This document shows, in pieces, positions 31,662 to 52,834 of a stretch of 64,000 nt of DNA. This stretch comes from a virus. A model generated the notes under the pieces. It did not search any database. It was given only the letters and a program-made list of their open reading frames with translations, and was not told the origin of the DNA. The stretch is from the IMG/VR virus record IMGVR_UViG_3300003321_000927, one strand, 5' to 3'. Numbering within the stretch: the stretch's first letter is position 1; every line of letters begins with the position of its first letter. The translations under genes were made by a program, and so were the position numbers.

Positions 31662-34600
31662 CTAGACCCGAATGTTGAAGTGCGCGCCCGACGACACAGC
31701 GCCAAGGACAAAAGGCACGTAAGACGCGCGGCTGATCGGAGCTTCAAAGATGACCATCGTCGAGCTGCCGTCGGCATTGACGCCCGTATCAAGCAGCGCC
31801 AACACATACAGCTTGTTGTTCGAGTAGGCGAGCCGCGAAAACGTCCAGGCGTCGAGTTGCGGCAACGGGTTGCGGCCGTCGACCGGCATCCAGCCGATCC
31901 CTGAGCCGGGGTCCTGATCCACGAAGATGCCGGTGCCGTAGAAGGGCGTCGTGTTGTTGAACCAGTCGTAGATCAGCCAGATCCTGCCCAGTTCATCGCA
32001 TACGCAGTCAACGCCGGTCGGATCGGTCCAAGCGTGCGTTGCGTCATTGCCAAGCGTGTCACTGGCGGCTCCGTTATTGGTCTGCCTGTAGTCCTTGCGA
32101 TGCACGTAGTCGGGCTGCTTGTACTTGCCCAGATACGGCTCCCACGCCGTGCCATCTGCGGCGAGCTGCATCACGAGCACCCGGTCCGCCGCCGAGGCGA
32201 GGATCACCCTTGAACCGTTCCAGATCAGCCGCATCCCCTGCTGGGCGCTGCCCTTGGTCAGCGTGAAGTTGCTGCCGATTAGCGGCTGTTCGAGGAAGCC
32301 CATCAGGTCGCGATCGCCGCCGGTGTTCGCGAACACTTCGAGATGCGTCTTCACCTGGCTCGACCAGGACGTGCCGTTGTACTCCTGGTAGATGAACTCG
32401 TTCTGGATCCCGGACGGATTCGTCCCGTTGGTAGGGAAGTAGCTGGCGCAGTAGATCGCCGATGGGTTCGCGTTCGGGCCATCGTGGTGGTGGAATGTGA
32501 AGTCGACCTGGAGCTGCGTGTCGACGTGGATGTTGTTGACGTTGTAGTAGGCGCCGTAGATCTGCACGCGGTTCGCGTCTGGGCCGGGCAGGGCGGTGTC
32601 GACCCAGGTTGAGCCGTTCCATTTCCAGAGATAGGGCCGTACGTAGAACTCGTCGGCGCCGCCGTCGGGGGTGGCGGTGTAGCTGCCTCCGCTGAACGTC
32701 CACGCTGATGGCCAGTCGACGGCGTTGATCGCCGGTGTCTCACCGGCGGGATAGGTGGCGGAGGGGTCGCGGCGCAGCCCGAAGCCGAGGTAGCCGTCGC
32801 TGAACCACGAGCTGGTGTCGGTCGCGCTGTTCGGAAACGCCCTCGCGGGCGTCCCCTCCTGCGCGATCCACGCCTGGATCTGCGTCCCCGTCTGTGCGCC
32901 GATCGCCCCGACCGGCGTCGCCCGGATCGAAAGGATCGTCGGGTCGCGGTTGATGCTGGAGTTGTGGACGTTGCCGTTGTAGAGCAGCGTCTCCGTCCAG
33001 TTCGCCGCGCTGGTGCCGGTCTTCTTGACGATCGAGAGCGCGTTCGCGCCGCTCGGGCCCTGCGTCCAGCGGGCGTAGTAGCCGGGGTACTCGATCCGAC
33101 CGCCGCCGAGGTCGACAGGCGCCTGCAGCATCACCCCGACCTCCGCGTACAGGTTGGTGGCGGCGCCGTAGAGCACGTCGACGTGCATCGCGGCTTCCTG
33201 CGCGTTGCCCTTCGTGCCACCAGCGGTATAGCGGGCGACGTTCATGTACGTGGTGGCCGCCGATGGCACGACCCTGTTGCGTGTGGTCGTCGAGCTGTCT
33301 TGATAGAGGATCGTGGTGGAGCGGACCGTCAGCCCCGATTGGTCCCAGGAGGCGGAGAGGTTCGTCAGGTCGTCGATCAGCGGGGCGGTGAAGAACGGGG
33401 TTGCGCCAGCGTCGTCGGTTTCGCACCAGCCGACCCACGGGCTGCCTGACGGGTCGACGCGCAGCGTCACGGCGCAGTCGCCGCGCCCGGCGTCACAGTT
33501 GCTCTGCGTGCGCACCGCGGGCATCTTGTTCGCCTGCCCCGTCGAGGAACCGAGTTCTGTGAAGGTGCCACTGCCGGGCGAGTACTTCATGCAGCGCCAA
33601 GCGGTCTGGTACTCAGAATTTCTGTTTGCGCGGGACACAGGAGGCTGCGTTGTCGATACTTCGCCCCACGCGATAAAGACGTTCGTGCCATCGGTCCCGA
33701 TCGAGCAACTTGGCTTGCCGCGAGTATTGCCCGCGAAGGTCGAGCTGATCTCCGACCAGGCGGCGCCGTTCCAGCGCCAGAGCACCATCTTCCCGGTCGC
33801 GTTCCAGGCGGGCGAGGCAGAGACGAAACTGCCGGAGACGACGTAGACATCGCCGTTCGAGGTGACGCAGAGGTCTTTGCAGTTCGGGTAGGCGTCGTCG
33901 GCGATTCGGGCCGGTGTCAGCCCGGCATCGGTCCAGGCGGTAGCGCCGAGCGGCAAATTCGACACCGTCGCCAGGTCGATCGTCCCTTGCGGCCCGCCGT
34001 CAGCAAGCCAAACGAAGTCGACCGACCGCACTTCGAGCGTCGTGTCGGCGTCGTCGCGACCGTCGTTGACGACCGAGAAGCTCACCTCGTCGCCAGCCTT
34101 CAGCCCGTAGTACGGAGGCCCGCCAAGCCAGGCCGTGATGCCGGAGGCGGGCGGCCCGGTGAGCACGGCCGCAAAGCTGCCACTAACGCCGTACCCCGCG
34201 TTGCTGTCAACCTCCAGCACGAACGGCGCCATCCCGAAGAGGTGACCATTGACGTGCATGATGAGCGCGTAGCTCGCGGCGAAGCGCTCGGTGGTCGGGC
34301 TGACGTCCGTGGCGACGCCGTTCACCACCACCTTATAGGCACCTGGGCTGGGCAGGTTCGTGCCGCGCACGTAAAAGCTCGGACTGGGGTACAAGTTGAG
34401 ATCGTCGATGCCGTAGAAGTTCGGACTGGTGTCCGCCTGCCAGATCCGGGAGTCGATCACGCCGGTGCCGGTGATGGTGACCGTCGGCGAGCTGGTGTTC
34501 GGGTCGGCGGTCGCGAGCACCGTCTTGTTCTTGCTAACGGTGACGGTGAGGGTCGTCGTCTCCGACGCGCTGCCGTTGTTTCCGGTGACGGTGAGCGCGT

Positions 34601-35522
34601 AGGTTCCTGCGGCGACGGTGGATGTCGTCGTGATCGTCAGCGTCGAGGTGCCTGCGTTCTCGTTGATCGACGTCGGCACGAAGGCCGCTGTCATCCCTGC
34701 GGGCAGGCCGGAGACGCTGAGGAGGACGGTGCCGCTGGTATCCGTACCGAGGGCAGAGGTGACGGTCGTCGACTGCGATGACGCTGAGCCTGCCGCAAAG
34801 GTCATCGCGTTCGGCGAGCAGGAGACCGAGAACGGGCCGGGAGCTGGCCCCCAGGCGATGGCATCGACGTTGTTCTGGGCGACACCCCCGATCGTCAGCG
34901 ACGCCTGAACGCTCACCGCCCCCGAGGAGATGTCGACGGTAACGAGGTGGTTGTTGCCGGTCTGCGTCCCCCAGAAGACACCGGTGTCGGGGTTGAACTT
35001 TCCCGCTTGCAGCCTCGTGGTGTCGCTGCCGGTAGCAACGGTCGTGACGGCGCCCGTCGAGAGGTTAACGGTCTCCACGAACTGGTCGTTGCCGATCACG
35101 TGGTAGAGGGTTCCACCGCTGAAGTCGAGCCCACCGCTGTAGTCGCTCGCCACGGCCCCAATCGTCGTGACGACCCCGGTGCTCTTGTTGATCGCCCAGA
35201 GTCCACCGCCGGTGGAATCCCAGCCGTAGAGTTGACCGGAAGCGCTGAAGGCTATGTCCGCGGCGGCGCGAGTCAGGCTCAAATCGGCAACGAGCGTGCC
35301 TGCGCCGGTAGTGCGGTCGATCGTGATGATCGCCTTCGGATGCGAGGCGCTGTTGTTGCTGGTCGCGCCATAGAGGATCCCTGTTGTCGGATCGATTGCG
35401 AGCCCGGTTACGGCAAAGCCGATCGGTCCGATCGACGTCATGTTCCCCGTCGCGGGATCGACCGAGTAGAGGTTGGATGTCGTATTCGGGCCGCCGAGCG
35501 CGGCATAGAGCTGGGAGGCCAT
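31662..35522 (-). CDS. tail fiber / receptor-binding protein (1286 aa): N-terminal beta-propeller-like repeats, Ig-like domains, C-terminal beta-rich region
   Basis: Repeated G..LY.. blades. Ig-like segments TTLTVTVS. The size and position distal to the TMP fit a fiber. Confidence 0.6.
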   Translation of the reverse strand: MASQLYAALGGPNTTSNLYSVDPATGNMTSIGPIGFAVTGLAIDPTTGILYGATSNNSASHPKAIITIDRTTGAGTLVADLSLTRAAADIAFSASGQLYGWDSTGGGLWAINKSTGVVTTIGAVASDYSGGLDFSGGTLYHVIGNDQFVETVNLSTGAVTTVATGSDTTRLQAGKFNPDTGVFWGTQTGNNHLVTVDISSGAVSVQASLTIGGVAQNNVDAIAWGPAPGPFSVSCSPNAMTFAAGSASSQSTTVTSALGTDTSGTVLLSVSGLPAGMTAAFVPTSINENAGTSTLTITTTSTVAAGTYALTVTGNNGSASETTTLTVTVSKNKTVLATADPNTSSPTVTITGTGVIDSRIWQADTSPNFYGIDDLNLYPSPSFYVRGTNLPSPGAYKVVVNGVATDVSPTTERFAASYALIMHVNGHLFGMAPFVLEVDSNAGYGVSGSFAAVLTGPPASGITAWLGGPPYYGLKAGDEVSFSVVNDGRDDADTTLEVRSVDFVWLADGGPQGTIDLATVSNLPLGATAWTDAGLTPARIADDAYPNCKDLCVTSNGDVYVVSGSFVSASPAWNATGKMVLWRWNGAAWSEISSTFAGNTRGKPSCSIGTDGTNVFIAWGEVSTTQPPVSRANRNSEYQTAWRCMKYSPGSGTFTELGSSTGQANKMPAVRTQSNCDAGRGDCAVTLRVDPSGSPWVGWCETDDAGATPFFTAPLIDDLTNLSASWDQSGLTVRSTTILYQDSSTTTRNRVVPSAATTYMNVARYTAGGTKGNAQEAAMHVDVLYGAATNLYAEVGVMLQAPVDLGGGRIEYPGYYARWTQGPSGANALSIVKKTGTSAANWTETLLYNGNVHNSSINRDPTILSIRATPVGAIGAQTGTQIQAWIAQEGTPARAFPNSATDTSSWFSDGYLGFGLRRDPSATYPAGETPAINAVDWPSAWTFSGGSYTATPDGGADEFYVRPYLWKWNGSTWVDTALPGPDANRVQIYGAYYNVNNIHVDTQLQVDFTFHHHDGPNANPSAIYCASYFPTNGTNPSGIQNEFIYQEYNGTSWSSQVKTHLEVFANTGGDRDLMGFLEQPLIGSNFTLTKGSAQQGMRLIWNGSRVILASAADRVLVMQLAADGTAWEPYLGKYKQPDYVHRKDYRQTNNGAASDTLGNDATHAWTDPTGVDCVCDELGRIWLIYDWFNNTTPFYGTGIFVDQDPGSGIGWMPVDGRNPLPQLDAWTFSRLAYSNNKLYVLALLDTGVNADGSSTMVIFEAPISRASYVPFVLGAVSSGAHFNIRV

Positions 35523-36811: not shown

Positions 36812-39800
36812 CTAGCGAGTCGCCCCGGCGTAAGCGCCGCGGCGCGGCGCGACGTTACGGGAATCGTGCCGCTGCAGCTCGCGGCGGATGTCGCGACCGA
36901 TCCGCGTCCCATCCTTGGAGTCGCCCCCGCCAATCGTGATGTTGATCGGGCCGGTGAAGACCTGGCCGCCGTCGCTGAACGCGCGGGCGGGGATTGCGGC
37001 GACGCCACGGGCCCGGCGGGTGCCACCGAGTGTGTCGAGACCGTTCGCATGCGGCGTGACGAGTCCTGCATTGACCGGATGCGCCTGCGCCTGCGCCACG
37101 GCCCCCTGGAGCGCCAGCTTCTTGTCCCTCGGCAGCGAGTCGTAGTGAGGAATCGTCGAGCGGAGCTGGCTGACCGCCGAGACGGGGTCAAGCAGCTTCT
37201 GCAGACGCTTCTGCATTTCGACGACGTTGCCCGGACGATCGCGAGCGTCGAGGATCTTGCCCTTGGAAGCGGCAAGCCCCTGGAGGAGCGCCTGGTTCCG
37301 CGGATCGTTGGCGGCGTTCTCGATCGTCAGTGAGTTCTTGGCAACGACCGCGGTCAGCCGCTTCAGCCACTGCGACAGCTCACCGAGACCCGGAACGCGC
37401 AGGGTCGGTACCGGCGATGGCGTGGGGTTCTGCCCGACGCCGTTCTCGCTGACGACGCCGCCATCCGCGTAACGCTTGGCGATCATCGAGAACAAGCTCG
37501 TCGGCGACACGTTGCCGACACCGAGCATCGTCGAGAGGTTCGACTGCTGCTGCCGGTTGAGCACGATCTCACCCGGCGTGAGCATCGCTGGCACGGTGTC
37601 GCCCGAGCCCGAGCCTGGGACGAGCCCCCCGGTCCGGAAGCCCTTGACACCGTAGTGGATGCGGCTCTCGATCTTCTTCATGAGGTCCTGCAGCGCCTCG
37701 TCCCCGTACTGGTTGGCGTAGCCCTTGAAGTAGGCGTCTGCCGCCGACGTGATGAAGCGACGGAAGTCGCCTCCCCAACGTCCGGTCTTATTGAGGGCCT
37801 TCTGCGGCACCCAGGAGGCGGCCTGGACCTCCTTGGGCGCCCATCCGAGCTGCCGCGCGACCTCCTGGTACATGGCCACGAAGCTGTTGTAGGCGTGGCC
37901 TGGTGAGTCGTGCCCCGGCCAAACGAGGGCTGTCGAGTGACGATCGATGGTCGTCGACTGCTGCTGCGCGAGCCGCGCGTAGGCCCGCGGGTCGGCGTTC
38001 TCCAGGATGCCGAGGAAGTAGTTCGTGAGCTTCGGGATGCGTCCCTTGGCACGCCCAGGACCGACACCGAAGAGATCGGCGATCTTCTCCATCTGAGCCT
38101 CATGGAACTTGAACTTGCCCTGAGCGCCGTTGGCCGTCCGACCGACCTTCGGCTTGTAGTACTTGGCGAAGGTCTCAGCGGTGAGCTTGCCCTCGCCCTT
38201 GATCGCGCGAATGGCGGCGACGGCGAGGTTGAAGTTGGAGGTCGGATCCTCGCTTGGCGAGGTATATGCCAGCGCCTTGACGAACTTGCTGGTGCTCACA
38301 CCCTCGCGCTTGGCTGACTGCTTCGCGACGAACGCTGCAGCGTCATACCAGCGGCGGTATTGCGCGTACTCGACGGCCATCGTGTAGATGCGCCTCATCG
38401 CACCAGCGGGGCCGCCTGGGAGATCCTTCGGCACGATCCAGTCCGCCTTGCCCTTGTTCGCGGAGACGAGCTTCTGGAAGTTCTCGACAGCCGCCGTCTC
38501 GTCGAAGGCCGGAACGTAGTTCCTTCCGATCAGGGTGCCTGCGACCCGCGCTGCCGCTTCGACGTCAGTGTCAAGAAGGGGCTTATGCGGGAGCGCGCGG
38601 CGGATGTTCCTCTTGCCGAGCGCGGTCTGGAACGAGGCGGGCTTATGGCCGGGGATGCCGTAATCGGGGAGATGGCGGTCGAAGACGTAGCTCCCTTGCC
38701 AGGAGATGTCATGCCCGCTGATGCCGAGCTTGCCAATCGTCTTCTTGAATTGCTCCGCCTCAACACCGCCAAAGTTGACGACGTAGTAGCCACGCCGCAC
38801 AGGGCTATGCATGATCCCGACGTTGCCCTCGCCGTAGGCCTGGTCGAGCCTTGCCTGGACCTCGGCGATGTCCCGGCCGCCAGACTGCCAGAAGACGCCT
38901 GGGTGGATGTCGGGCCCGACAGCACCAGGCGCGAGCGGGCGCCCGAACGACAGCGAGGCCTGCTTGAAGCCCTTGCCGACGTAGGCTGTGAGCGCCTTGA
39001 CCTTGTTCTCGAACGCCTGGTCGTAGCCCTCCTTCGGAATGGCGACGTGAATGCCGTAGCCGATGTTCTTCTGGCCGCGCCAGGTACCGAGACCAGGCCG
39101 GATGTCCGTCACGTTGAGTCCGAGCGAGCGCGCGGCCTCGTGGATCCGCTTGTTCGCGGCCCCCATGAGCGCCCGCGCCTCGATCGCCTGCCCACGGAAC
39201 GTCTTCGAGCGGAAGCGCGCGTAATCCTCGGGGTACAGTTCCTCCTTCGGCTCGAACTCACCGAAGATCTGCACCTCCTTCTGGTTGAGCGCGGCAACGA
39301 CCTTCTGCGGGAGGTTCGCGTAGTTCCGGTTGCGAAAGATGACATCCTCGCCCGAGTGAGCAATCCCGTACTTGCTGGTCTTCAACTGCTTGCCGACGAG
39401 GCCCTTCGGGATGGCGACGATCCAGCGTCCGTAGTACGAGCCAGGCTTCGTTGTCGCAAAGGCACCAGGAGGAGCGCCGAAGCCACCGCTCCGTTCCGCC
39501 GAGGTCGCGAGCAACTTCCCGCTCTCGATGATCGCCTTGGCCGACTTTTCATTCATCGTGGAGTGATAGAAGAAGCCTGCATTCGGGAGCAGGTCGCGAT
39601 CCTTGTAGGGCACGTAGAAGGCCTGGCCGCTCGCGAGGAGCTGATGGATGCGACGCGACTCACGGCCGAGGAAGAGCGCACCCGTTTCGTCCGTGGCAAG
39701 GCGCTTCAGTGCCTGCTTGAACCGGGAGCCGCGGCTCTTCAGGTCGAGTTCGAAGCGGCCACTCCTACCCCCGCCGACACGCTGGAACCCGAGGTGCTCG

Positions 39801-42800
39801 TAGAAGGTCTCGCCGGAAAGCGTCGAGAGCAGCTCCAGCTTTGACGCGCCAGACTTCAGGGCATCACCCATCACCCGCTGAACGAGCTGACGGCCGACTC
39901 CCTGCGAGTTGGCCGTCGTCGCGAGCGAGATCAGCTCTGCGCCCGACGCCTTGCCCTTCACCTTCCCGAAGACGTCGGTGATGCCGACGCGGTTGGCATC
40001 ACGCAGCGCGAGGTTGGCAACGCCAACCAGACCACCGGACTGGTCGCGGGCGACGTAGGTGCGCCCGCTCACCAGGTTGAGCAAGGTCTCTTCGGCGAGT
40101 TGCCTTCCGCCTGGCTTCCACTGCGCTGCGCGGACTTCGTTGAGGACTTCGACGCGCTTCTTAGGATCGAGGAGGCTGATTCCGTGCGCGAGTGTGATCT
40201 GGCCACGATCCGACCGGAGTGCGTTGATCACCCGCGAGCGACGGTCGGCAGGTGACAGTGTGTGGTCGGTCGCCAGCGACCCGAGGCCGGTGTTCTTGCC
40301 CCTGCGTGCATTCCTAAGCGTGTCCGCGACACTGCCCTCGCCACCGGGGTAGAAGGCCTCCTGCCACATCTCCTTGTAGGTGGCGGGGATCGAACGGAGG
40401 AAGCCGCGACGGTCATCACGCCATGTCTTCGCTCCTGCCGCCAGGCGCTCCCACTGCGCACGGCTGGCAACGCCGCTCGCAGCAACAGTCTCCCGCAACG
40501 CGCCCCCGGTCACCGGGATAAACTGCGCGCCGAAGAGAGCGAGTGCGCCGAAGAGACTCTTCGCGTTGCTTCCCGAGGGATCATCCGCGAACGCCCTACC
40601 CGTCTTGGCAACCGGCACGACACCGAAGCCGGAGGCGATCAGAGACCGGGCGATTTCGATGGGGTTGGACGCCGCCGCGAGCAGGCGCACGAGCGGCGAG
40701 TGCTCGTAGGCCTTGCGCAGAACGCGAAGATCCTCGGTGGTGTTCGGGGCATGATCCCCGCTCGTCGCTCCATGCGTCGCACGAACGAAAGCGCCGAGGC
40801 CTGACCTCGGATCGTATGTCGTCTTGACTGCGTTCGCGTGGTCGATCGAGTTGAGGATCCGTCCCTCCGACCAGGTCGGGTGCCATTGCTTGATCTGGCC
40901 GCGGATTTCGGCGTCGCTGTAGCCCTCGCGCCGCATGCGGCGGATCGCCTGGTCGATCGACTCCATCGGGGTCGCCGTCGTACGCTTGTGATGCCGGTCA
41001 GCGACGCCGCCGGTAGCGAAGCGCGAGATGCGATGAAAGAGGGTATGCGGGTCGTCGCTCGTGATGCCGAGGCGCGATGCGAGGCCGGACTGCTGGCGCT
41101 TGTTGAGGACGATCTCGCCCGGCGTCAGGAGCGCTGGGACGGAGTCGGTGCTCCCGCGACCAGGAACGACGGCGCCGGTGTTGGCACCGAAGAATCCCTG
41201 GTCGCGCAGGTTACGGCGGAGAAGGATCTGAAGCGGCTTTGGATACCTGTTGAGCCAGGCCTCGTACTCGTCCTTCGAGGGCCGACCGTGCTGAGGCGGT
41301 TCTCCGCCAACGTGGGCGGCGCGCATCGCAGCGATGATCGCCGGACGCGTCGGGATGCCGCTCGCGATCTTCGCATTCGTGATCGGGTTCGGAGCGGCAG
41401 CCGCTGTCACAGCCGCGGCGGCTCCGCCCTTGCGCGTCGAATCGGTCCGCTCCTCGGCGTTGATCGCGGCGATGCCCTGGGAGAGGTTGCGAAGGCGGGT
41501 CGTCAGGTCGTGCGTGCGCTTGTCGATCTTGTCGAGGTTGCGCTGGATGTCCTTGGTCAGGTTGTCGAAGTACTTCGACATCTGATCGGCGTATGCCTTG
41601 CCGCCGTCCTTGCCCGCCTGCTCGATCGAGACGTTGAAGCGGCGCATGATGCCCTGGACGTCCTTCTTGTACGTCGCGAGCGAGATCTTCCCCTTCTGGA
41701 ACAGCGTCTGCTCGCCTGCAAGGGCGGCCTTCAGGTTGTCCTCTGCGACCTGACGCGTGGCCTCGATGCTGCGCCGCAGGTCCGAGCGCTGGTCCTCGAT
41801 CGCCTGCCGTTCGAGCTTGCGCCGCTTGTCGAGGTCCTTCTTCGCGTTGTCGAGCGCCTTGTCGGCGGCCGTCCGCTCGGTCTTCGCACGCGCCTCCAGG
41901 CCGAACTTCCGCTGCGCGAGCTGTGCGTCCTCGATGTTCCGCTGCGCCTCGCGGATCGCTACCGGGTCGCCGACAAGCTCGGCCGTCCCCAGTGCCTGCC
42001 GCGAGTCGAAGAGATCGCGCTGGAAGTTGCGCTTCTCCTGGATCCGGTCGAGCGCGTCCAGCTCGCGCTCGGCAGGCGTCTTCCCGTTGACCTTGACGGT
42101 GAAGGTCGCGTTCGGCAACTTGACCTTCGCCGTGAGGTTGTCCTCCAGCTTCTGCGTCTTGTCGTCGAAGGCCGAGAGGATGCCGTCCGTCTTCCGGTCG
42201 AAGCTGTCGAGCATCCGGTCGGTGCGCGCCTCGAAGGCGTGCGTGACCGAGTCGCCGATGTGGTTGAAGAGCGTGTCGAACTGGTGCTGCGCAGCCTTGA
42301 CCTGCTGGTTGACCGGGTCGAGGATATTCGCCAGCTCGTCGTGACCGTGCTGGCGCAGGAAGTTTGCCGCGGCGACCGCGTTGGCGGTGAGCTGCTGTTC
42401 CTGCGCCTGCTGTAGGAGCGTCTCGGCAACGGCCTCCCGGCCCGCCTTGCGCGCAGCTTCTGCCTGCTTGACAAGGATGCCAATCTTCGGCAGCGTCCGG
42501 TCGAGCCCGTTCTCCAACTGCTTGAACAGCTCGTCGTTGACGTTGTTTTCGAGGTTCTTCTTCGCCGAGGCGCCGATCTTGCCGAGCCGCGCCTGGGCGT
42601 CGTGCGCATCGCGCTCGGACAGCCAGTGCCCGATCAGCGGCACGTGCTTGTCGATATGGTCGGCGAAAAACTGATCGAGCTTACCGAGCGCGGTGCGGCC
42701 CTTGCTCGTGCCATCGATAAGCTGCTCGATCGCAAGCGAGAGCCCGATGATCCCGCCCTTGCCGACAAGCGCGTTGAGGCCGATGGCACGAAGCGCGCCG

Positions 42801-45481
42801 GAGAAGAGCCGCGAGTTGACTACGCCCTTCGTCAACATGAATGTCCCGACTGCGTTGATCGTGTTCTCCAGCCCCAACCCCGATGCCTGAGCCGCGAGCA
42901 GGCCGCCCGCGACGAGCTTCAGCTTGGTGCCCAGCGACGCCGACTGGAAGGAGAGATCCTTCATCTTCACACCCAACGCGGCCAGTCCGGTCGCCGCGAC
43001 CGCACCGTCTTCGCCGAAGGCCTTCAGGCCCCTAATCTTTCCGAGGGCCGCAGCGCCACCGAGACCGATCGCCGCGAAGGTCGCGATGCCGACCTTCTGG
43101 ATGTCGAGCAGGTCGTGCGTGACGGCATCGCGCGTCTTGTGCGAGTCGAAGATGACCTTGCCAACCAGATCGGTGGCGAAGGTGAGCGCGATGAAGTCAA
43201 GGCCGAGCTTCGCGGTCTGCCGCATCCCCTGGATCGCGGTGCCGAAGTTCGTCGTCATGATCCGCAGCGGCTGCTGCGTCGCGGCGGCTGCCTCTGCCGC
43301 CTCCTGCCTCAACCGCGTCTGGAGCAGCTTCGTGCGCTGATCGAAGGCAGCGAAGCCAGTGACGGGAACTGCTGCAAGCGAAACCTGCCGCGTACGAATC
43401 CTGCTTTGGAGATCGGCGACGCGCGCGGCTGCAATCGAGATCCCCACTCCCTGCTTCTGGGCGATCTGCAGCTCCTTCTCGGCGAGCGTCAGCTCGCGCG
43501 TCATCTGCAGCAGCTTCGCGTCGGACGGGAAGAGCAGCGTCTCATTGCTCTTCGCAAGTTGAAGCTCGGTCGTGGCCCGGTCCAGCTCCGCGCGGGCGAT
43601 CGCAATCTGATTCGGGATGGCGGTCTGAAGTGCGGCGTTGTACTTCGTCTGCGCGGCGGTGACCGTCTGAGTCGCTGCCGCGACATCGAGCGCCCGCCGC
43701 TTCTCGATCACCGCAAGGGCGGCGCCGCCGATTGCGGCCTCTTCGCCGACCGTGAGACCGGCACCACCAGCCGTCTGGCCACGACTGAGATTGCGGCCAG
43801 CCGAGACCTTCGAGAGCGCAACGGCGCCCCCCGTGGCGGCGAGGATACCGCCACGGACACCGGCGTTAGAGGCGGCGTTGACGCGACCGATCGAGGCGGC
43901 TGCCCGATCAGCAGCTCCGGCGACCCTGTTGTAACCGCTGACGAACTCCACGGTCGCCTTGCGCTCGGCGATCAACGCCTGGTTCTGCTCGACGTTGATG
44001 CCGCGCACAGCGTAGGCCGCCTTGGTCGCGGCGACCTGCCAACGACCCCAGACGGTGACGCCGAGGGAGGCCGCCTGGACGAGACGGCCGAAGAGCGAGG
44101 TGATCGGGCCGAAGAGCAGAAGTCCGAGCCCGAAGTCCTTCAGCAGCCCATGCAGAGGGCCGAGCTTCTGAAGGAAGTCGTCGACACCCTTACCCGCGCT
44201 TACCGCGCCGTTGACGAAGCTCAGGAAGTCAGCGCCGATGTGGATGAAGCTGTGGCCGACCTCGATACCGGTTGCGCGCAGCTTCGAAAGCTGGAGCTGG
44301 AGCTGACCGATGGGGGTCTTCAGCTTCGCTTCGTAGGCACGCTTGATGACTTCCTGCGAATGCTCGGCGTCGAACGAGAGCTGCGAGAAGACCGACGCCG
44401 TCTGCGCCCGGCGCGGGCCTGTCAGGACGAGAAACTCGGTGAGGGCGCGGATGTTCGGGAACAGCTTCGCCATCGCCTCGTTTGTGGTCCCGACCTGCGC
44501 CTTGATCTTCGCGAGAGCGAGGGCGTCGCCGCCGAGTCCGGCCGCCAGCGTCTTCGTGTTGATCTTGACCGGCGCATCCCCGAGCTTGTTCAGCTCGGTG
44601 CGCAGGGCAATCAGCGTCGGCAGAAGGCCGATCTGCGGATCGCGGATCGACTTGATGACCGCGGTCGGCGAAGTGCCGACCGAGGCGAGCGCCTTCTGGG
44701 TGATCGGCTGGGCCTTCTGGATCTGCGAGAGGAGGGCGCGGACGCCGGTGACGGCGAGGTTGGCGTTCAGGCCCTGGCGCGTCGTCGCGGCGATTGCAGC
44801 GCCGAGCTGGTCGTAGGAGAGGCCGAGCGCGTTGGCGATCGGGATGGCGCGACCCATCGCCCCGGCCAGCTCATCCGTCGGCAGCTTGCCTGCGTTGATC
44901 GTTCCGATCAGGATGGCGACGGACTGGTTCGCGCTGAGCGAGGTGCGGCTCGCGGTCTGCCCGGCAATGCCGTACGCGTCGAGTGATGAGGCGACGGCGT
45001 CCGCGACATCACGAATCGATCCGAGACCGGCTGCCGAGGCCTTTGCGATCGGCCCCATCGCGGCGATCGTCTGATTGGTGCGGAAGCCGACCGACTGCAG
45101 CTCGAAGACGGCGTCGGCGAGGTCGGAGAAGTTGTTGACGATCGTCGAGCTGCCGAGGTTCAACATCGCGCGCGAAAGGCGCTGGGTGTCAGCAGCCGTC
45201 GTGTTCGTGATACCGCCGATCTTCGCGACCGAGGTCTCGAAGTCCGCCGCCAGCTTCGCGCTTGCAACCCCGAGCAAACCGAGCGGGACCGTCAGATTGC
45301 GCGTGAAGAAGTTTCCGACCTGGACGGTGCGGCGGCCGACGGCGCGCAGGCTTTCGTCGACCTTGCGACCAACGACCGTCGACGCCTGCAGCTCGGCGTT
45401 GAATGCAGCGACCTGCTGAGTCGCCAGCCTCAACTGCGCGTCATTAACGGTGATCGCGTAGGCGAGATCCTGGCGAGCCAC
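36812..45481 (-). CDS. tail tape measure protein (2889 aa) with embedded GNAT acetyltransferase domain and duplicated internal module
   Basis: GTG at 45481 with GGAGG 8 nt upstream. The N-terminal 1400 aa are a helical Ala/Gly-rich TMP core. It lies downstream of the chaperone and major tail genes. An internal Q.VGRQL GNAT motif A is present. Confidence 0.8.
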   Translation of the reverse strand: MARQDLAYAITVNDAQLRLATQQVAAFNAELQASTVVGRKVDESLRAVGRRTVQVGNFFTRNLTVPLGLLGVASAKLAADFETSVAKIGGITNTTAADTQRLSRAMLNLGSSTIVNNFSDLADAVFELQSVGFRTNQTIAAMGPIAKASAAGLGSIRDVADAVASSLDAYGIAGQTASRTSLSANQSVAILIGTINAGKLPTDELAGAMGRAIPIANALGLSYDQLGAAIAATTRQGLNANLAVTGVRALLSQIQKAQPITQKALASVGTSPTAVIKSIRDPQIGLLPTLIALRTELNKLGDAPVKINTKTLAAGLGGDALALAKIKAQVGTTNEAMAKLFPNIRALTEFLVLTGPRRAQTASVFSQLSFDAEHSQEVIKRAYEAKLKTPIGQLQLQLSKLRATGIEVGHSFIHIGADFLSFVNGAVSAGKGVDDFLQKLGPLHGLLKDFGLGLLLFGPITSLFGRLVQAASLGVTVWGRWQVAATKAAYAVRGINVEQNQALIAERKATVEFVSGYNRVAGAADRAAASIGRVNAASNAGVRGGILAATGGAVALSKVSAGRNLSRGQTAGGAGLTVGEEAAIGGAALAVIEKRRALDVAAATQTVTAAQTKYNAALQTAIPNQIAIARAELDRATTELQLAKSNETLLFPSDAKLLQMTRELTLAEKELQIAQKQGVGISIAAARVADLQSRIRTRQVSLAAVPVTGFAAFDQRTKLLQTRLRQEAAEAAAATQQPLRIMTTNFGTAIQGMRQTAKLGLDFIALTFATDLVGKVIFDSHKTRDAVTHDLLDIQKVGIATFAAIGLGGAAALGKIRGLKAFGEDGAVAATGLAALGVKMKDLSFQSASLGTKLKLVAGGLLAAQASGLGLENTINAVGTFMLTKGVVNSRLFSGALRAIGLNALVGKGGIIGLSLAIEQLIDGTSKGRTALGKLDQFFADHIDKHVPLIGHWLSERDAHDAQARLGKIGASAKKNLENNVNDELFKQLENGLDRTLPKIGILVKQAEAARKAGREAVAETLLQQAQEQQLTANAVAAANFLRQHGHDELANILDPVNQQVKAAQHQFDTLFNHIGDSVTHAFEARTDRMLDSFDRKTDGILSAFDDKTQKLEDNLTAKVKLPNATFTVKVNGKTPAERELDALDRIQEKRNFQRDLFDSRQALGTAELVGDPVAIREAQRNIEDAQLAQRKFGLEARAKTERTAADKALDNAKKDLDKRRKLERQAIEDQRSDLRRSIEATRQVAEDNLKAALAGEQTLFQKGKISLATYKKDVQGIMRRFNVSIEQAGKDGGKAYADQMSKYFDNLTKDIQRNLDKIDKRTHDLTTRLRNLSQGIAAINAEERTDSTRKGGAAAAVTAAAAPNPITNAKIASGIPTRPAIIAAMRAAHVGGEPPQHGRPSKDEYEAWLNRYPKPLQILLRRNLRDQGFFGANTGAVVPGRGSTDSVPALLTPGEIVLNKRQQSGLASRLGITSDDPHTLFHRISRFATGGVADRHHKRTTATPMESIDQAIRRMRREGYSDAEIRGQIKQWHPTWSEGRILNSIDHANAVKTTYDPRSGLGAFVRATHGATSGDHAPNTTEDLRVLRKAYEHSPLVRLLAAASNPIEIARSLIASGFGVVPVAKTGRAFADDPSGSNAKSLFGALALFGAQFIPVTGGALRETVAASGVASRAQWERLAAGAKTWRDDRRGFLRSIPATYKEMWQEAFYPGGEGSVADTLRNARRGKNTGLGSLATDHTLSPADRRSRVINALRSDRGQITLAHGISLLDPKKRVEVLNEVRAAQWKPGGRQLAEETLLNLVSGRTYVARDQSGGLVGVANLALRDANRVGITDVFGKVKGKASGAELISLATTANSQGVGRQLVQRVMGDALKSGASKLELLSTLSGETFYEHLGFQRVGGGRSGRFELDLKSRGSRFKQALKRLATDETGALFLGRESRRIHQLLASGQAFYVPYKDRDLLPNAGFFYHSTMNEKSAKAIIESGKLLATSAERSGGFGAPPGAFATTKPGSYYGRWIVAIPKGLVGKQLKTSKYGIAHSGEDVIFRNRNYANLPQKVVAALNQKEVQIFGEFEPKEELYPEDYARFRSKTFRGQAIEARALMGAANKRIHEAARSLGLNVTDIRPGLGTWRGQKNIGYGIHVAIPKEGYDQAFENKVKALTAYVGKGFKQASLSFGRPLAPGAVGPDIHPGVFWQSGGRDIAEVQARLDQAYGEGNVGIMHSPVRRGYYVVNFGGVEAEQFKKTIGKLGISGHDISWQGSYVFDRHLPDYGIPGHKPASFQTALGKRNIRRALPHKPLLDTDVEAAARVAGTLIGRNYVPAFDETAAVENFQKLVSANKGKADWIVPKDLPGGPAGAMRRIYTMAVEYAQYRRWYDAAAFVAKQSAKREGVSTSKFVKALAYTSPSEDPTSNFNLAVAAIRAIKGEGKLTAETFAKYYKPKVGRTANGAQGKFKFHEAQMEKIADLFGVGPGRAKGRIPKLTNYFLGILENADPRAYARLAQQQSTTIDRHSTALVWPGHDSPGHAYNSFVAMYQEVARQLGWAPKEVQAASWVPQKALNKTGRWGGDFRRFITSAADAYFKGYANQYGDEALQDLMKKIESRIHYGVKGFRTGGLVPGSGSGDTVPAMLTPGEIVLNRQQQSNLSTMLGVGNVSPTSLFSMIAKRYADGGVVSENGVGQNPTPSPVPTLRVPGLGELSQWLKRLTAVVAKNSLTIENAANDPRNQALLQGLAASKGKILDARDRPGNVVEMQKRLQKLLDPVSAVSQLRSTIPHYDSLPRDKKLALQGAVAQAQAHPVNAGLVTPHANGLDTLGGTRRARGVAAIPARAFSDGGQVFTGPINITIGGGDSKDGTRIGRDIRRELQRHDSRNVAPRRGAYAGATR

Positions 45482-49885: not shown

Positions 49886-52834
49886 CTAATCCTCACCGTC
49901 GGACAGGACGACACTGCCAGTCGCCTCATCGGTCAATCCGAGCCAGTTCGCGATCTCGTCGGTAAGGGCCGCCGCTGCGGTCATGTTCGAATCGAGGAGA
50001 GCGAGCGCCACGGCCTCGTCGGTAAGCAGCGCCTGCGCAGTCGCTGCATCGACGAGCAGGACGACCCCTTCGCGCTCGAAGACGAAGAACTCCCACGGCT
50101 CCCGTGTCGTCTGCGCGACCTTCTGCAGGGCATCGGCCTGCATCAGAGCCATGACTCGGAGGCTCGATGCCTGCGCCTCCGCCCGGAGAGCGGCCAGGAG
50201 CTGGAGGCTCGCGAGCGCCTCGACAGAACCGAGAATCCGTCCGCCCAATCCGGTGAGCGCCTCGACCGGAGCGGAGCCACCGGCCGACCGCAACGCCTGC
50301 TTCAGGTCCGCGATCATCGAGGCGTTTTGGGATACGGGCCTGACTGCCTCCGCCCGCGCAGTACCCGCGACGTTAAATGCGCGCAGCGCCTCGTAGAGCG
50401 CAGCCGTCGTCGCCCTGATGCCGCGTCCTACGTCGAGGGATCCCTCCATCGTCCGCTCGACGAGCTGGAGGCTCTCCAGGGCCATCTCTGCCGTCTGAGA
50501 GACTGTCCCCGTCGTACGACTTTCCTCGGGCGCGCCGATCGTAGCCCGGATCTCCTGTAGGGCGCCGATCGGGGCCACGATCGTCGCTCTGGTACCTGCG
50601 AGCGCCTGGACAACCTCGACAGCCGTCGCGCTGACCGAGGCGAGAGATTCACCGTCGAGCTGGCCTGAGGCGGCGAGCCGCTTTAGGCTGTCGAGCATGG
50701 CGGAGCCGACCGAGCTGAGGCTGAGTAGCGTCTCGTATGGCGGCGCGAAAAGTGCAGCCACACCGCGCAGGACATCGGCTGGGTACTGCTGGACTACCTG
50801 GATGGCCTGCTCGCTTTCGACGCCTACCGAACCCATCAGCGCGAGTCCGAGCAACGTCTCGACCGGGAAGGTGGCAATGTTCGAGACGGCGTTCTGATTC
50901 TGCGTGTCGAATGGATCACCGAAGAACTGCTGGACGAGCTGCAGCGCCTCAACGGCAAGCTGGGAGGAAGCGACGATCGAGCCGAGGCTCTCTGCCTGAG
51001 AGGTGACACTGGACGCAAGCTCTGCGCCACTCTCGGCGACGAGTTCTTCAAGGATGGCGAGAGTCCTGATGGAGTCGGAAGGTGCGACGAGTGCCGCCAC
51101 AAAGGCCTGCAGCGTTTCGACGGAGACACCGGTGCTGCTTGCGATGCCGCGGAGCGCTTCGGCAATCGCCACATAGGTCCGCTGGACGATCTGAAGCGTC
51201 TCCGCGCTCGACTCACCGGTTTGCGCAATGATGCCCAGCGCCTCGTTAGCGCTGGTGGCGCTGGTGGCGATTTGCGCCGGAAGGTCGAGCGACCCGGTGC
51301 CCGCTCTTGTGACGCCTTGCAGAGCCTCTTCGCACATTGCGATCAGGGCAGCAAGACCGCGCAGCGAATCGAGCTGCGAAACGCTGGATGCAGCGAGCGT
51401 AGACAGCGATTCCTGGGGCGTCTGAGAAGGGCGAGAAAGAGTCGAAAGGATCTCCACGGCCTCAGCGGTTGTTATCACCACCGTCTGCAACGCTTCCACA
51501 GCCTCCCCCGATCCAGCGACTGCCAGCTTCAGCAGCGTGCTGAGCGCGGCAGAGCTTGTCACCGCGAGCTTCTTCAGAGCTTCGTATGGTTCGGCGAGGC
51601 CGACGATCGCCAACATCCGCAGCGTCTCCAGCGCGTTCGCCGCGCCAGCCGCATCCACCGCCTGCAGCGCCTCGTAGGCGCTGGCGCTGCCCGCGACTGC
51701 GAGCGCGTGCAGCGACTCCAGGGGCAGATTCGACGTTTGTGAAACGCTCGTCACGGAGGTCGACTCCAGGGGGCCGACCTCGTTCGCCTTGATGAGCTGG
51801 GTCGCCTCGCCCGGATCCTGAGCCGAGGCGGAGCGTCCCGCGAGCGCCTCAATTGCATCGATCGCCCGAACACCCGCGTAGGTCAAGGAGACGTTACCGC
51901 CGCCGAAATTGTCGATGATCGCGACAGTATTACGGATGTCCACCTGGATCACATCGGCACCCGTGCTAAGCGTGCCGGTCGTCTTGGTGAAGCTAAGGAC
52001 AAGCACCCCGTTCTGGTAGGCCGTCAGCGTCTGGCCAACTACCCGAAACACGATCACGTCGCCCGCCGAGAGCGTGATCCCCGCACTTGCAATCGGCAAG
52101 ATGCTGTCGTTCGGTGAAACGAATGCGACAGATCCCGCACGCCACAAACAGCGGTAGGCAGGCGACCTGACGGTAAACATGATCTCGTCCGACCCGGTGG
52201 GCGGGGTGACAACAGTGCAGAAGATTTCGCAATCTGGACCGAACGTCGACGGCAGCCACTTGTTGCCCTTCAAGCCAAACGTGTCCGTCGTGTTCTTGAC
52301 CTGGTTCGAAACGATGAACAGGGTGTTGCCCGAGTTTTGCGAGATCCCCCAGTTGCCGGTCGCGTTCAACGCCGAGTCGGCCCGGTTGAAGTCGTCGAGC
52401 ACCGGGGCTTGGGGGATCGCTGTGTTGACGCTGTAGAGCGTCTGCAGAGCCTCGACCGCCTCCGCCTTTGCGGTGGCACTTCTCGCAAGTAGATCGAGTG
52501 GATCACCTGATGTGAGAGCCAGCAAGCGCAGAGATTCGAGCGGGTCGCCCGCGGAGGCCTGAAGAACCTGAAGCAGATCGGTCGACGAGGCCAGCGCGCG
52601 CGTCAATGCCTGCAGGTTTTCGTAGGGAAGGGAGAGAAGAGACGCAACCCCTCCCGGCGCATCAACCTGAGCCACGGTCGGCTTAGCCAGGCCCTGGACG
52701 ATGTCAATGAACCCGCTCTTGAGGAGGGCAACTAGCTCGTCGAGCGTGAAGTCGTCAAAGCCTTGCCCGAGGCCGTTCTCGAATTCGAGCGGATTGCCAA
52801 GGAAATCCTCGGAGATAGGAACGAAGCTCGACAT
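49886..52834 (-). CDS. giant repeat protein (982 aa): LamG/ConA-like domain plus degenerate E-A-L-Q helical repeats; head or tail fiber/decoration candidate
   Basis: A DDFNRADSALNATGNW...beta domain, followed by more than 30 copies of ..E(A/S)L..L(A/S).. repeats. Paralogous to the 1670-aa protein. Confidence 0.6.
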   Translation of the reverse strand: MSSFVPISEDFLGNPLEFENGLGQGFDDFTLDELVALLKSGFIDIVQGLAKPTVAQVDAPGGVASLLSLPYENLQALTRALASSTDLLQVLQASAGDPLESLRLLALTSGDPLDLLARSATAKAEAVEALQTLYSVNTAIPQAPVLDDFNRADSALNATGNWGISQNSGNTLFIVSNQVKNTTDTFGLKGNKWLPSTFGPDCEIFCTVVTPPTGSDEIMFTVRSPAYRCLWRAGSVAFVSPNDSILPIASAGITLSAGDVIVFRVVGQTLTAYQNGVLVLSFTKTTGTLSTGADVIQVDIRNTVAIIDNFGGGNVSLTYAGVRAIDAIEALAGRSASAQDPGEATQLIKANEVGPLESTSVTSVSQTSNLPLESLHALAVAGSASAYEALQAVDAAGAANALETLRMLAIVGLAEPYEALKKLAVTSSAALSTLLKLAVAGSGEAVEALQTVVITTAEAVEILSTLSRPSQTPQESLSTLAASSVSQLDSLRGLAALIAMCEEALQGVTRAGTGSLDLPAQIATSATSANEALGIIAQTGESSAETLQIVQRTYVAIAEALRGIASSTGVSVETLQAFVAALVAPSDSIRTLAILEELVAESGAELASSVTSQAESLGSIVASSQLAVEALQLVQQFFGDPFDTQNQNAVSNIATFPVETLLGLALMGSVGVESEQAIQVVQQYPADVLRGVAALFAPPYETLLSLSSVGSAMLDSLKRLAASGQLDGESLASVSATAVEVVQALAGTRATIVAPIGALQEIRATIGAPEESRTTGTVSQTAEMALESLQLVERTMEGSLDVGRGIRATTAALYEALRAFNVAGTARAEAVRPVSQNASMIADLKQALRSAGGSAPVEALTGLGGRILGSVEALASLQLLAALRAEAQASSLRVMALMQADALQKVAQTTREPWEFFVFEREGVVLLVDAATAQALLTDEAVALALLDSNMTAAAALTDEIANWLGLTDEATGSVVLSDGED

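What the first reader, a model, noticed from the sequence alone, without database searches (positions are those of the whole stretch)
37523..41146. Duplicated approximately 60-aa module (…VPGxGSxDxVPA(L/M)LTPGEIVLN(K/R)QQQSxL…) bracketing the cargo region of the TMP
Two near-identical stretches, at 41066-41146 and 37523-37600, encode the motif DSVPALLTPGEIVLNKRQQSGLASRLG and DTVPAMLTPGEIVLNRQQQSNLSTMLG. The similarity extends over about 60 aa and about 45 nt.

They flank the approximately 1150-aa segment that contains the GNAT and other globular domains. This is consistent with insertion or duplication of a cassette by recombination between the repeats, or with a repeated functional motif such as a cleavage, anchoring or peptidoglycan-interaction site.
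Basis: seen in the sequence. Interest (0 to 1): 0.55.

Follow-up and report, generated by a model that had tools for sequence, protein, structure and literature searches.

The report
Junction motif brackets tape-measure cargo cassette
A phage tail tape measure protein carries two copies of a short conserved motif on either side of a 1,100-residue inserted segment. The same motif marks the borders of swappable segments in thousands of tape measure proteins, including lambda's, where it lies next to a cleavage site that has never been mapped.

Summary
The 2,889-aa tape measure protein (TMP, window 36812-45481, minus strand) has two copies of a ~68-aa module, at aa 1428-1495 and 2611-2678. They are 58% identical (BLASTP E=1e-18) and flank about 1,115 aa of cargo. 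The copies are not near-identical. At DNA level only 60 nt match, at 82%, with no exact run longer than about 10 nt, so the duplication is old and maintained at protein level.

The closest syntenic relative (tail tube 83% identical) has a 1,728-aa TMP with one module and no cargo. That single module resembles copy 1 in its N-terminal part and copy 2 in its C-terminal part.

The module core (GGxVPGxGxxDTVPAMLTPGE[FI]V) is no Pfam or NCBIfam family. It is found in 7,783 representative proteins. Every solved-structure chain matched at E up to 10 is a TMP (four chains, two of them at E 0.005 or better): mycobacteriophage Douge (two copies), lambda gpH 731-778, JBD30 and T1. Giant TMPs of 2,000-7,900 aa carry 4-10 copies, and cassette replacements break at the motif.

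Best reading: it is a junction module that delimits cargo cassettes, probably a processing site and/or a hub-docking hook. The architecture is shown. The mechanism is inferred.

The parts
36812..45481 (-). Tail tape measure protein gene, 2,889 aa (identical to P0001, from a 71-kb JGI contig)
   Evidence: ORF. PF10145 PhageMin_Tail at aa 105-306, E=1e-18. TIGR01760. PHROG TMP families. Synteny with the tube and chaperone genes of relatives.
41201..45481 (-). TMP core (aa 1-1427), the ruler part shared with cargo-less relatives
   Evidence: Aligns to P0004, P0005 and P0007 from aa 1 to about 1431-1497 at 41-44% identity.
40997..41200 (-). Junction module copy 1 (aa 1428-1495): ...FFGANTGAVVPGRGSTDSVPALLTPGEIVLNKRQQSGLASRLGITSDDPHTLFHRISRFATGGVADR
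   Evidence: HMM envelope 1428-1495. Alignments. Its upstream flank is homologous to the upstream flank of the single module in P0003/P0004.
37652..40996 (-). Cargo cassette (aa 1496-2610), absent from single-module relatives
   Evidence: Missing in P0004. Conserved in P0002 (63%) and P0006 (34%). No relatives found in the viral, metagenome or genome contig scans.
39773..40084 (-). GNAT-like acetyltransferase sub-insert (aa ~1800-1903), present only in this TMP
   Evidence: Acetyltransf_7/_10/_1 just below their cut-offs. Weak ArsN2 hit. The region is absent in P0002 and P0006.
38591..39703 (-). Conserved cargo block of unknown fold (aa 1927-2297; FFYHGTS...IQIFGEFEP...YYVVNF)
   Evidence: 44% identical to P0006 aa 1703-2070. 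Invariant columns. No Pfam or PDB sequence match. The AF2 model is unusable, pLDDT 41.
37808..38368 (-). DUF7178 domain (aa 2372-2558), the last cargo domain
   Evidence: PF23802 E=5e-6, at its cut-off. phrog_3842.
37448..37651 (-). Junction module copy 2 (aa 2611-2678): ...GVKGFRTGGLVPGSGSGDTVPAMLTPGEIVLNRQQQSNLSTMLGVGNVSPTSLFSMIAKRYADGGVVSE
   Evidence: HMM envelope 2611-2678. Its downstream flank is homologous to the downstream flank of the single module in P0003/P0004.
36815..37447 (-). C-terminal tail (aa 2679-2889). It includes a further aromatic-x-x-GG box (AFSDGGQV, aa 2835) and a terminal strand-plus-helix (INITIGGGD...RDIRRELQRH) that resembles the hub-binding ends of lambda, T5 and JBD30 TMPs.
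   Evidence: Aligns to P0004 aa 1398-1723. Box scan. The comparison with lambda gpH and with the IMG/VR TMP ends is by eye. Hub binding is known only for other phages.

Best explanation
The two stretches are two copies of a conserved TMP junction module: an aromatic-x-x-GG box, an extended GxVPGxGxxDTVPAMLTPGE[FI]V core, two short helices and a second aromatic-x-x-GG box.

Ordinary TMPs have one copy. It sits between the ruler part and the C-terminal piece that plugs into the tail-tip hub. Here a ~1,115-aa cargo cassette (small helical domain, GNAT-like domain, conserved unknown block, DUF7178) lies between two copies, giving the architecture ruler-module-cargo-module-C-tail. This is one instance of a widespread scheme, ruler-module-[cargo-module]n-C-tail.

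Shown: the architecture, the polymorphism for cargo, and cassette replacement breaking at the motif in the giant-TMP pair examined residue by residue.

Inferred mechanism: each module marks a junction where the TMP is cleaved after tail assembly, as lambda gpH is split into gpH* and gpHC and T5 pb2 into pb2* and pb2C. Alternatively or additionally, the chain forms a hook there that docks in the opened hub. Either way, the cargo stored at the tip end of the tail lumen would be released as a separate polypeptide and enter the host ahead of the ruler part and the DNA.

The conserved core also serves as the breakpoint for gain, loss and exchange of cassettes.
For: Duplication is real.

Single-copy, cargo-less relatives versus two-copy relatives.

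Lineage evidence: the cargo-less phage L087 is the closest syntenic relative (tail tube 83% identical, versus 75% for the cargo-bearing L088). Its module is a copy-1/copy-2 chimera with the switch inside the invariant core. Copy-2 sequences of three phages cluster at 65-70% identity, copy-1 sequences at 52-61%, and copy 1 versus copy 2 at 52-62%, so both copies are old and conserved.

Motif breadth:
- 7,783 representative proteins at E<=1e-3, with the top hits being 2,000-7,900-aa proteins carrying 4-10 copies.
- All giants scanned have an N-terminal PhageMin_Tail domain.
Of the 80 loci fetched, 28 have two or more copies.
- 316 cultured-phage records, including two-copy Gordonia phages.

Cassette behaviour: inter-motif segments form families. 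In the P0145/P0146 pair, homology ends at motif 4 and resumes at motif 5 around non-homologous 500-aa and 859-aa inserts.

Links to known biology:
- Profile A4 hits only TMPs in the PDB sequence set: Douge with two copies (E=6.6e-9), lambda gpH 732-776 (E=0.005), JBD30 1014-1066 and T1.
- hhalign against gpH gives 90% probability, E=1.5e-6.
- gpH is cleaved in this neighbourhood, and both the site and the protease are unknown (PMC12617516).
- The JBD30 authors predicted residues 1022-1066 to be a hook (PMC11445458).
- The T5 cleavage R1127|AEGG falls at an x-A-x-GG box, and the 43 residues before it dock in the opened hub.
- In this TMP, aromatic-x-x-GG boxes occur almost only at the module edges and near the C-end (aa 1488, 2615, 2671, 2835); one further instance (FYPGG, about aa 1711) lies in the cargo.
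- The AF2 monomer model of the module is extended plus two helices at low confidence, as expected for a segment that folds on a partner.
Against: - No direct evidence of cleavage at the motif exists in any phage.
- The motif profile does not detect T5 pb2, so the T5 link rests on resemblance by eye.
- The lambda site is known only from gel sizes.
- In Douge, which has two copies, the authors describe a trimer through the tube and report no processing.
- It is unclear how about 1,100 aa per chain of mostly globular-looking cargo fits in a ~4-nm lumen.
- The cargo function is essentially unknown. The GNAT hit is below its cut-off, and there are no PDB or Pfam hits for the rest.
- The ranking favours multi-copy proteins, so their frequency is not known.
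Confidence: 0.55

Rival explanations
1. The module is a structural hook or anchor only, with no cleavage. It docks the TMP to the hub or distal tail ring. A cargo insertion must regenerate a module next to the C-tail so that tail initiation still works. The upstream copy is kept because it still anchors the ruler part after ejection, and the cargo stays covalently attached to the TMP.
For: - Hook prediction for JBD30 residues 1022-1066.
- The T5 pb2* end docks in the hub crevice.
- The last copy always lies about 58-120 aa (sometimes 200-360 aa) from the C-end.
- Douge reports no processing.
Against: - A trimeric hub offers one set of docking sites, yet giants carry up to 10 copies.
- A hook on the C-terminal side of uncleaved cargo would block exit of everything upstream of it.
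- Cleavage next to this region is documented for lambda and T5.
Confidence: 0.25
2. The duplication is a recombination by-product. The motif is needed once for an unrelated reason, and TMP genes recombine illegitimately at this conserved stretch. The second copy is a passenger scar with no function of its own.
For: - Cassette breakpoints coincide with the motif.
- The family is polymorphic for cargo.
Against: - Both copies keep every invariant residue in three phages that are only 34-63% identical in the cargo.
- The DNA copies have diverged as far as the protein constraint allows.
- Internal copies are equally conserved across hundreds of giant TMPs: D 98%, P 100%, G 100%, E 99%. These figures come from instances selected with a pattern that requires the P, and the G position was restricted to six residues.
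- A scar would decay.
Confidence: 0.1
3. The module is a repeated binding site for an assembly factor, such as the tail assembly chaperone or the first tube ring. The factor keeps each added segment soluble and threaded in the lumen during tail polymerisation.
For: - One motif per added segment.
- The monomer is predicted to be extended and not self-folding.
- A chaperone gene is conserved just upstream of the TMP gene.
Against: No data link chaperones to this segment. The location next to cleavage and hub-docking regions in lambda, T5 and JBD30 points to the tip, not to the chaperone.
Confidence: 0.1

Closest known systems
Lambda gpH C-proximal region (residues ~731-785, at the start of the gpHC fragment)
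   Same: Significant profile match to the module core and first helix: PDB-wide E=0.005, hhalign 90%. It sits in the same position, after the hydrophobic/Gly-rich stretch and before the hub-binding C-end. It is flanked by FATGG and YATGG boxes.
   Different: Lambda has one copy and no cargo. Its core is divergent (YEPAGIVHRGEFV). TIGR01541 and PF09718 do not match the window TMP. Cleavage there is known only approximately.
T5 pb2 processing into pb2* and pb2C, and the proposed JBD30 gp46 'hook'
   Same: A TMP split near its C-end, with the released piece stored in the tail and expelled first, and the new C-end docking in the opened hub. The T5 site R|AEGG resembles the FSPRAEGG start of the module in relatives P0005 and P0007.
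   Different: The T5 segment is not detected by the motif profile. Each has a single junction. The T5 C-fragment is 92 aa, not a multi-domain cargo.
Mycobacteriophage and Gordonia phage TMPs with embedded domains (TM4 peptidoglycan-hydrolase motif; Zirinka SLT domain; Douge gp16)
   Same: Extra domains are carried inside a TMP. Douge and Zirinka have two copies of the same motif.
   Different: The embedded domains described so far are small cell-wall enzymes. The repeated junction motif was not mentioned in the papers read, and no paper in the library contains the motif string.
Polyvalent proteins of phages and conjugative elements (Iyer et al. 2017, PMC5512222)
   Same: Many effector-like domains are made as one polypeptide, are proposed to be delivered with the DNA, and are separated by processing.
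   Different: Those are head-packaged or conjugation-delivered and use embedded metallopeptidase domains. 'Tape' does not occur in that paper. No peptidase domain was found here.
Demarcation motifs of polymorphic toxins (CdiA VENN, Rhs PxxxxDPxGL). This comparison is from my own knowledge and was not tested.
   Same: A short conserved motif marks the border of swappable cassettes and, in Rhs proteins, is an autoproteolysis site.
   Different: Unrelated sequence and unrelated machinery. Those mark one C-terminal toxin, not serial internal cassettes.
TMP-related effectors of contractile injection systems (Sle1, Tme; PMC13277306)
   Same: A TMP-like scaffold carries exchangeable functional domains that are loaded in a tube lumen.
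   Different: No repeated junction motif is reported for them. They are non-phage nanomachines with variable C-terminal domains, not internal cassettes.

Membership tests
Phage tail tape measure protein (TP901 / PhageMin_Tail type) | N-terminal PF10145 / TIGR01760 domain | tested here: met
   PF10145 68.4 bits against a cut-off of 33.2. TIGR01760 62.8 bits against 28.8. Eight or more PHROG TMP families.
Phage tail tape measure protein (TP901 / PhageMin_Tail type) | Gene lies between the tail tube/chaperone genes and the distal tail genes | tested here: met
   The upstream 330-aa ORF is 75-83% identical to Phage_tube_2 proteins of L087 and L088, and the 205-aa ORF matches their chaperone-position genes. 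PHROG tail hit.
Phage tail tape measure protein (TP901 / PhageMin_Tail type) | Protein length sets tail length; the protein lies in the tube lumen | not testable with these tools
   Needs virions and electron microscopy.
Lambda gpH-type C-proximal motif | Sequence-profile similarity between the module and gpH 731-778 | tested here: met
   A4 profile against PDB sequences: gpH E=0.005, and every chain listed at E up to 10 is a TMP. hhalign 90%, E=1.5e-6. The narrow profile A1 alone was not significant, E=0.2.
Lambda gpH-type C-proximal motif | Match to the curated lambda C-terminal models (TIGR01541, PF09718) | tested here: not met
   No hit in the window TMP. PF09718 maps to gpH 627-701, upstream of the motif.
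Lambda gpH-type C-proximal motif | Proteolytic cleavage beside the motif | not testable with these tools
   Known approximately for lambda and exactly for T5. Unknown here.
TMPs with embedded cell-wall hydrolase domains | Recognisable peptidoglycan hydrolase domain inside the TMP | tested here: not met
   No lysin, peptidase or SLT hit in Pfam, PHROGs or NCBIfam. By contrast, Zirinka has SLT at aa 1543-1633.
Polyvalent proteins (Iyer et al. 2017) | Several distinct effector domains in one phage polypeptide | tested here: inconclusive
   Only a sub-threshold GNAT and DUF7178 are recognisable. The rest is unannotated.
Polyvalent proteins (Iyer et al. 2017) | Embedded metallopeptidase (MPTase) for self-processing | tested here: not met
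   No peptidase family at E<=0.1.
GNAT acetyltransferase (cargo sub-domain) | Pfam GNAT model above its gathering score | tested here: inconclusive
   26.6 against 27.0 bits (Acetyltransf_7), 21.6 against 23.6, and 18.8 against 20.7. Three related models agree on aa 1800-1903.

The most novel reading that the evidence does not exclude
The DTVPAMLTPGE[FI]V module is a general, possibly self-acting, processing and release signal of long-tailed phages. Under this reading, TMPs with several copies are polyproteins whose motif-bounded cassettes are cut apart inside the tail and injected as first-strike effectors ahead of the DNA. The same signal would then explain the unmapped gpH->gpH* cleavage of lambda.
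Probability: 0.3. Interest if true: 0.9.

Novelty: new variant of a known kind. Interest (0 to 1): 0.7.

Why it matters
TMP cleavage has been known for lambda since the 1970s-80s and is now suspected to be general in siphophages and myophages. For lambda, recent structural papers state that both the site and the protease are unknown. A conserved motif that sits at that junction in lambda and delimits every added segment in multi-cassette TMPs gives a concrete target for mutation. Two-copy phages that can be grown (Douge, Zirinka) make a test straightforward.

If the cassettes are delivered into the host, TMPs are a large unexplored reservoir of injected phage proteins. The cargo of the giants examined has no Pfam annotation. 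The junction module would then also be a natural design rule for loading foreign cargo into phage tails.

Tried and rejected
- Megablast of the TMP gene against phages found no match.
- phmmer of the whole TMP against PDB sequences found nothing.
- My recollection that the module equals Pfam PF09718 was wrong. That model maps to gpH 627-701, upstream of the motif.
- The narrow module profile A1 gave only spurious XPF helix-hairpin-helix hits in the PDB set and a non-significant gpH match. The broader profile A4 was needed.
- Small ORFs that start at the motif looked like natural gene splits but were uninformative. P0058 is an orphan in a bacterial genome with no phage neighbours. P0135 is a piece of a frameshift-fragmented TMP.
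- The cargo search in the large protein database returned nothing, even though the parent protein is in it. Cargo scans of viral, metagenome and genome contigs found no relatives.
- The AF2 model of the cargo (3-sequence alignment) had pLDDT 41 and was not used for fold search. The AF2 model of the module had pLDDT 59 and gives secondary structure only.
- The giant TMP P0165 has no close relative among cultured phages or IMG/VR contigs.
- L036 and L037 are not a homologous single/double pair; they share only the motif.
- The idea that the giants are TMPs fused to downstream tail-tip genes was rejected for L024, which still has separate 196-, 1,436- and 277-aa genes downstream.
- An ADP-ribosyltransferase reading of 'FFYHGTS' has no database support.

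Full report
**Observation**

Window 36812-45481 (minus strand) is one 2,889-aa ORF, identical to a JGI protein from a 71-kb contig. It is a tape measure protein (TMP):
- PF10145 at aa 105-306 and TIGR01760.
- Many PHROG TMP families.
- Upstream genes that match the tail tube (Phage_tube_2) and chaperone-position genes of relatives.

The two quoted peptides translate exactly as written. BLASTP of the N-terminal 2,000 aa against the rest gives one significant alignment, E=1e-18. An HMM places the copies at aa 1428-1495 and 2611-2678, and they are 58% identical. At DNA level only 60 nt align, at 82%, and exact runs reach only about 8-10 nt. This is therefore an old duplication kept similar by selection on the protein, not a recent repeat.

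**Relatives**

Nine relatives from metagenomes fall into two classes.
- One module: P0003, P0004, P0005, P0007 and P0010, at 1,632-1,835 aa.
- Two modules: P0002, P0006, P0008 and P0009, at 2,138-2,749 aa.

P0004 aligns to query aa 1-1497 and 2561-2886, so it lacks exactly the inter-module part. The sequence upstream of copy 1 matches the sequence upstream of the single module. The sequence downstream of copy 2 matches the sequence downstream of the single module.

The P0004 module resembles copy 1 up to the invariant core and copy 2 after it. The phage carrying P0004 (L087) is the closest syntenic relative, with tail tube 83% identical and head-tail proteins 57-76% identical. The cargo-bearing L088 (P0006) is more distant, with tube 75% identical, yet its cargo is homologous at 34-44% identity.

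The simplest history is an ancestral two-module TMP that lost its cargo in the P0004 line by recombination inside the module core. Horizontal gain of the cargo is not excluded. Copy-2 sequences cluster across phages at 65-70% identity, so the duplication predates their divergence.

**Cargo**

Three sequences align over the cargo (A2). Its parts are:
- A conserved small helical start (IRRMRxEGYSDAxIRGQIxxWHPDW).
- A variable part that holds a GNAT-like region only in this TMP. The GNAT models are just under their Pfam cut-offs.
- A strongly conserved block of unknown fold (aa 1927-2297).
- DUF7178.

No PDB sequence relative was found. No relative turned up in three contig collections. The AF2 model was unusable.

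**The module is a general TMP motif**

Neither Pfam nor NCBIfam covers the module. Only phrog_35029, of unknown function, matches it.

A profile of 12 copies found 7,783 representative proteins at E<=1e-3 and 1,686 at E<=1e-10. The top hits are proteins of 2,000-7,900 aa with 4-10 copies of the core. The first copy is at about aa 450-690 and the last is usually 100-275 aa from the end. This ranking favours multi-copy proteins. Every giant scanned has an N-terminal TMP domain and no other Pfam hit passing its cut-off.

Across 641 instances the core is ...[FY]AxGGx[VI]xPGxGxxD-T-V-P-A-M-L-T-P-G-E-F-V-[VI]-N-K-x-A...L...N, followed by Gly-rich sequence.

Among the 80 loci fetched, 28 ORFs have two or more copies. 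Short TMPs of 550-770 aa have one copy 58-74 aa from the end. ORFs of 2,000-4,000 aa have a first copy at the equivalent place and a last copy about 80-120 aa from the end.

In cultured phages, 316 records carry the motif in TMPs: 106 Gordonia, 95 Mycobacterium, and also Pseudomonas phages and cyanophages. The Gordonia phage Zirinka TMP has an SLT domain followed by two copies.

**Cassettes**

I cut 155 proteins at their motifs and clustered the 854 segments, requiring at least 60% reciprocal coverage. The resulting families include:
- F0, the N-terminal ruler: 129 members.
- F1, the C-tail: 65 members.
- F2, about 1,200 aa: 51 members.
- F4, F5, F6, F9 and F12, which recur in varying combinations.

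Example: P0145 is F0-F6-F2-F4-F39-u-F25-F9-F1, and P0146 is F0-F6-F2-F4-F24-F46-F25-F9-F1. In that pair, collinear homology stops about 20 aa after motif 4 and resumes at motif 5. The segments in between are non-homologous, 500 aa in one and 859 aa in the other. The motif-bounded segment is the unit that is gained, lost and replaced, as in the window's own family. In the one giant locus I checked (L024), ordinary tail-tip genes are still present downstream, so its cargo is not fused tip genes.

**Link to known TMP biology**

A broader profile (A4, 56 diverse instances) searched against all PDB chain sequences returned only TMPs:
- Mycobacteriophage Douge gp16, E=6.6e-9, with two copies at 963-1011 and 1411-1459.
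- Lambda gpH 732-776, E=0.005.
- JBD30 gp46 1014-1066, E=0.045.
- T1 TMP, E=0.13.

hhalign against gpH gives 90% probability.

What the literature says about this region:
- In lambda, gpH is cleaved in the Gly-rich region near the C-end into gpH* and a ~14-kDa gpHC. Residues 818-849 of gpHC bind gpI, and residues ~690-817 are unresolved. The authors state that the site and the catalyst are unknown (PMC12617516).
- For JBD30, the authors predicted residues 1022-1066 to be a hook that holds the TMP in the baseplate after the C-terminal domain leaves, with cleavage proposed at R1066 (PMC11445458).
- In T5, cleavage is after R1127, and the 43 preceding residues dock in the crevice of the opened hub (PMC10038345).

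The T5 sequence ...SFVPR|AEGGMMYPG... puts the cut at an x-A-x-GG box like those at both ends of the module. Relatives P0005 and P0007 begin their module with FSPR[AG]EGG. However, the motif profile does not score T5, so the T5 link is a resemblance by eye.

In the window TMP, aromatic-x-x-GG boxes occur almost only at the module edges (aa 1488, 2615, 2671) and once near the C-end (aa 2835); one further instance, FYPGG at about aa 1711, lies in the cargo. The AF2 monomer model of the module is an extended stretch plus two helices at low confidence, which agrees with a segment that folds on a partner.

**Mechanism (inferred)**

The module sits at the junction between the part of a TMP that becomes the ejected channel and the part that plugs the hub. 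I think it is the junction signal: a processing site and/or a docking hook. With two copies, the cargo would be freed, or at least structurally separated, from both the ruler and the plug. Because the C-end exits first, the cargo would enter the host before the ruler part and the DNA.

Which side of the module is cut cannot be decided. The lambda gel sizes fit the upstream box. The JBD30 proposal fits the downstream box, and the T5 site could be read as either box.

Rivals are a hook without cleavage, a recombination scar, and a chaperone-binding site. The scar is unlikely because internal copies keep all invariant residues across very divergent proteins.

**Novelty**

TMPs with embedded domains, TMP cleavage, polyvalent phage proteins and TMP-like effectors of contractile injection systems are all known.

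I found no description of this motif, of its repetition, or of motif-bounded cassettes. No paper in the library holds the motif string. The Douge paper does not mention the two copies. The polyvalent-protein paper never mentions tape measure proteins. The literature tools cover open-access text only, so prior description elsewhere cannot be excluded.

**Verdict**

- The functional role is a reasoned hypothesis that can be tested in phages already in culture.

Noticed in passing
window 53788-58872 (-), 49886-52834 (-), 31662-35522 (-): Three other very large structural-region ORFs (1,694, 982 and 1,286 aa). PHROGs finds nothing for the 1,694- and 1,286-aa proteins and only a weak 'virion structural protein' hit for the 982-aa one. 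The phage is poorly annotated overall.
   Followed up: partly
L002 12122-12871 (T5 pb2 C-end): The published 'zinc carboxypeptidase motif' of T5 pb2 (PGVSYQMGEHGTEVV), which lies right after the R1127|AEGG cleavage site, looks like a degenerate copy of the TMP junction core. DTTQYLTLGERQKN, 40 residues upstream, looks like another. This is by eye only; the motif HMM does not score T5.
   Followed up: partly
PDB 8zdo_S (mycobacteriophage Douge gp16), residues 963-1011 and 1411-1459: A structurally studied phage has two nearly identical motif copies about 400 aa apart (SYAGGGFLSGPGTGRSDSMLARVSNGEFITRA...). The structure paper does not mention them, and only residues 1658-1699 are resolved.
   Followed up: partly
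L089 1120-7560 (Gordonia phage Zirinka gp17): An SLT transglycosylase domain (aa 1543-1633) ends where motif copy 1 begins (aa 1625-1676). A second copy is at 1970-2016 and a weak third at 950-997. About a hundred Gordonia phage records show two places with the motif.
   Followed up: partly
L003 6001-6315 (P0058): A free-standing 104-aa ORF that starts at the motif (MGFASGGKIPGIGSADTVPAMLTPGEFV...) and ends like a TMP C-tail. It lies in a bacterial genome between an LRR protein gene and a TonB-dependent receptor gene, with no phage genes nearby. It could be a remnant or a domesticated piece.
   Followed up: partly
window ~38591-39703 (-), TMP aa ~1945-2075: The conserved cargo block has an FFYHGTS...ATSAER...IQIFGEFEP pattern that reminded me of H-Y-E ADP-ribosyltransferases. 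It also gives a marginal profile hit to Tob1/BTG domains (E=0.08). Neither is supported at any accepted threshold.
   Followed up: partly
phage records H25 and H43 (Synechococcus phage S-SM2, Prochlorococcus phage P-TIM68): The motif also occurs in T4-like cyanomyophages, in genes annotated as 'transmembrane protein' or 'hypothetical'. It is therefore not restricted to siphophages.
   Followed up: no
P0008 / P0009 (relatives): Their two modules are only 398 aa apart, and the inter-module segment resembles the C-tail of the window TMP (query 2642-2810 against P0008 1736-1885). In that branch the duplicated unit seems to be module plus C-tail, not foreign cargo.
   Followed up: partly
(tool behaviour): Searching the cargo alone (window 37646-40999) in the large protein database returned no hit at all, although the parent protein P0001 is in that database. 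The word-based candidate step probably lost it, so 'no homologue' from that call is not evidence of absence.
   Followed up: no
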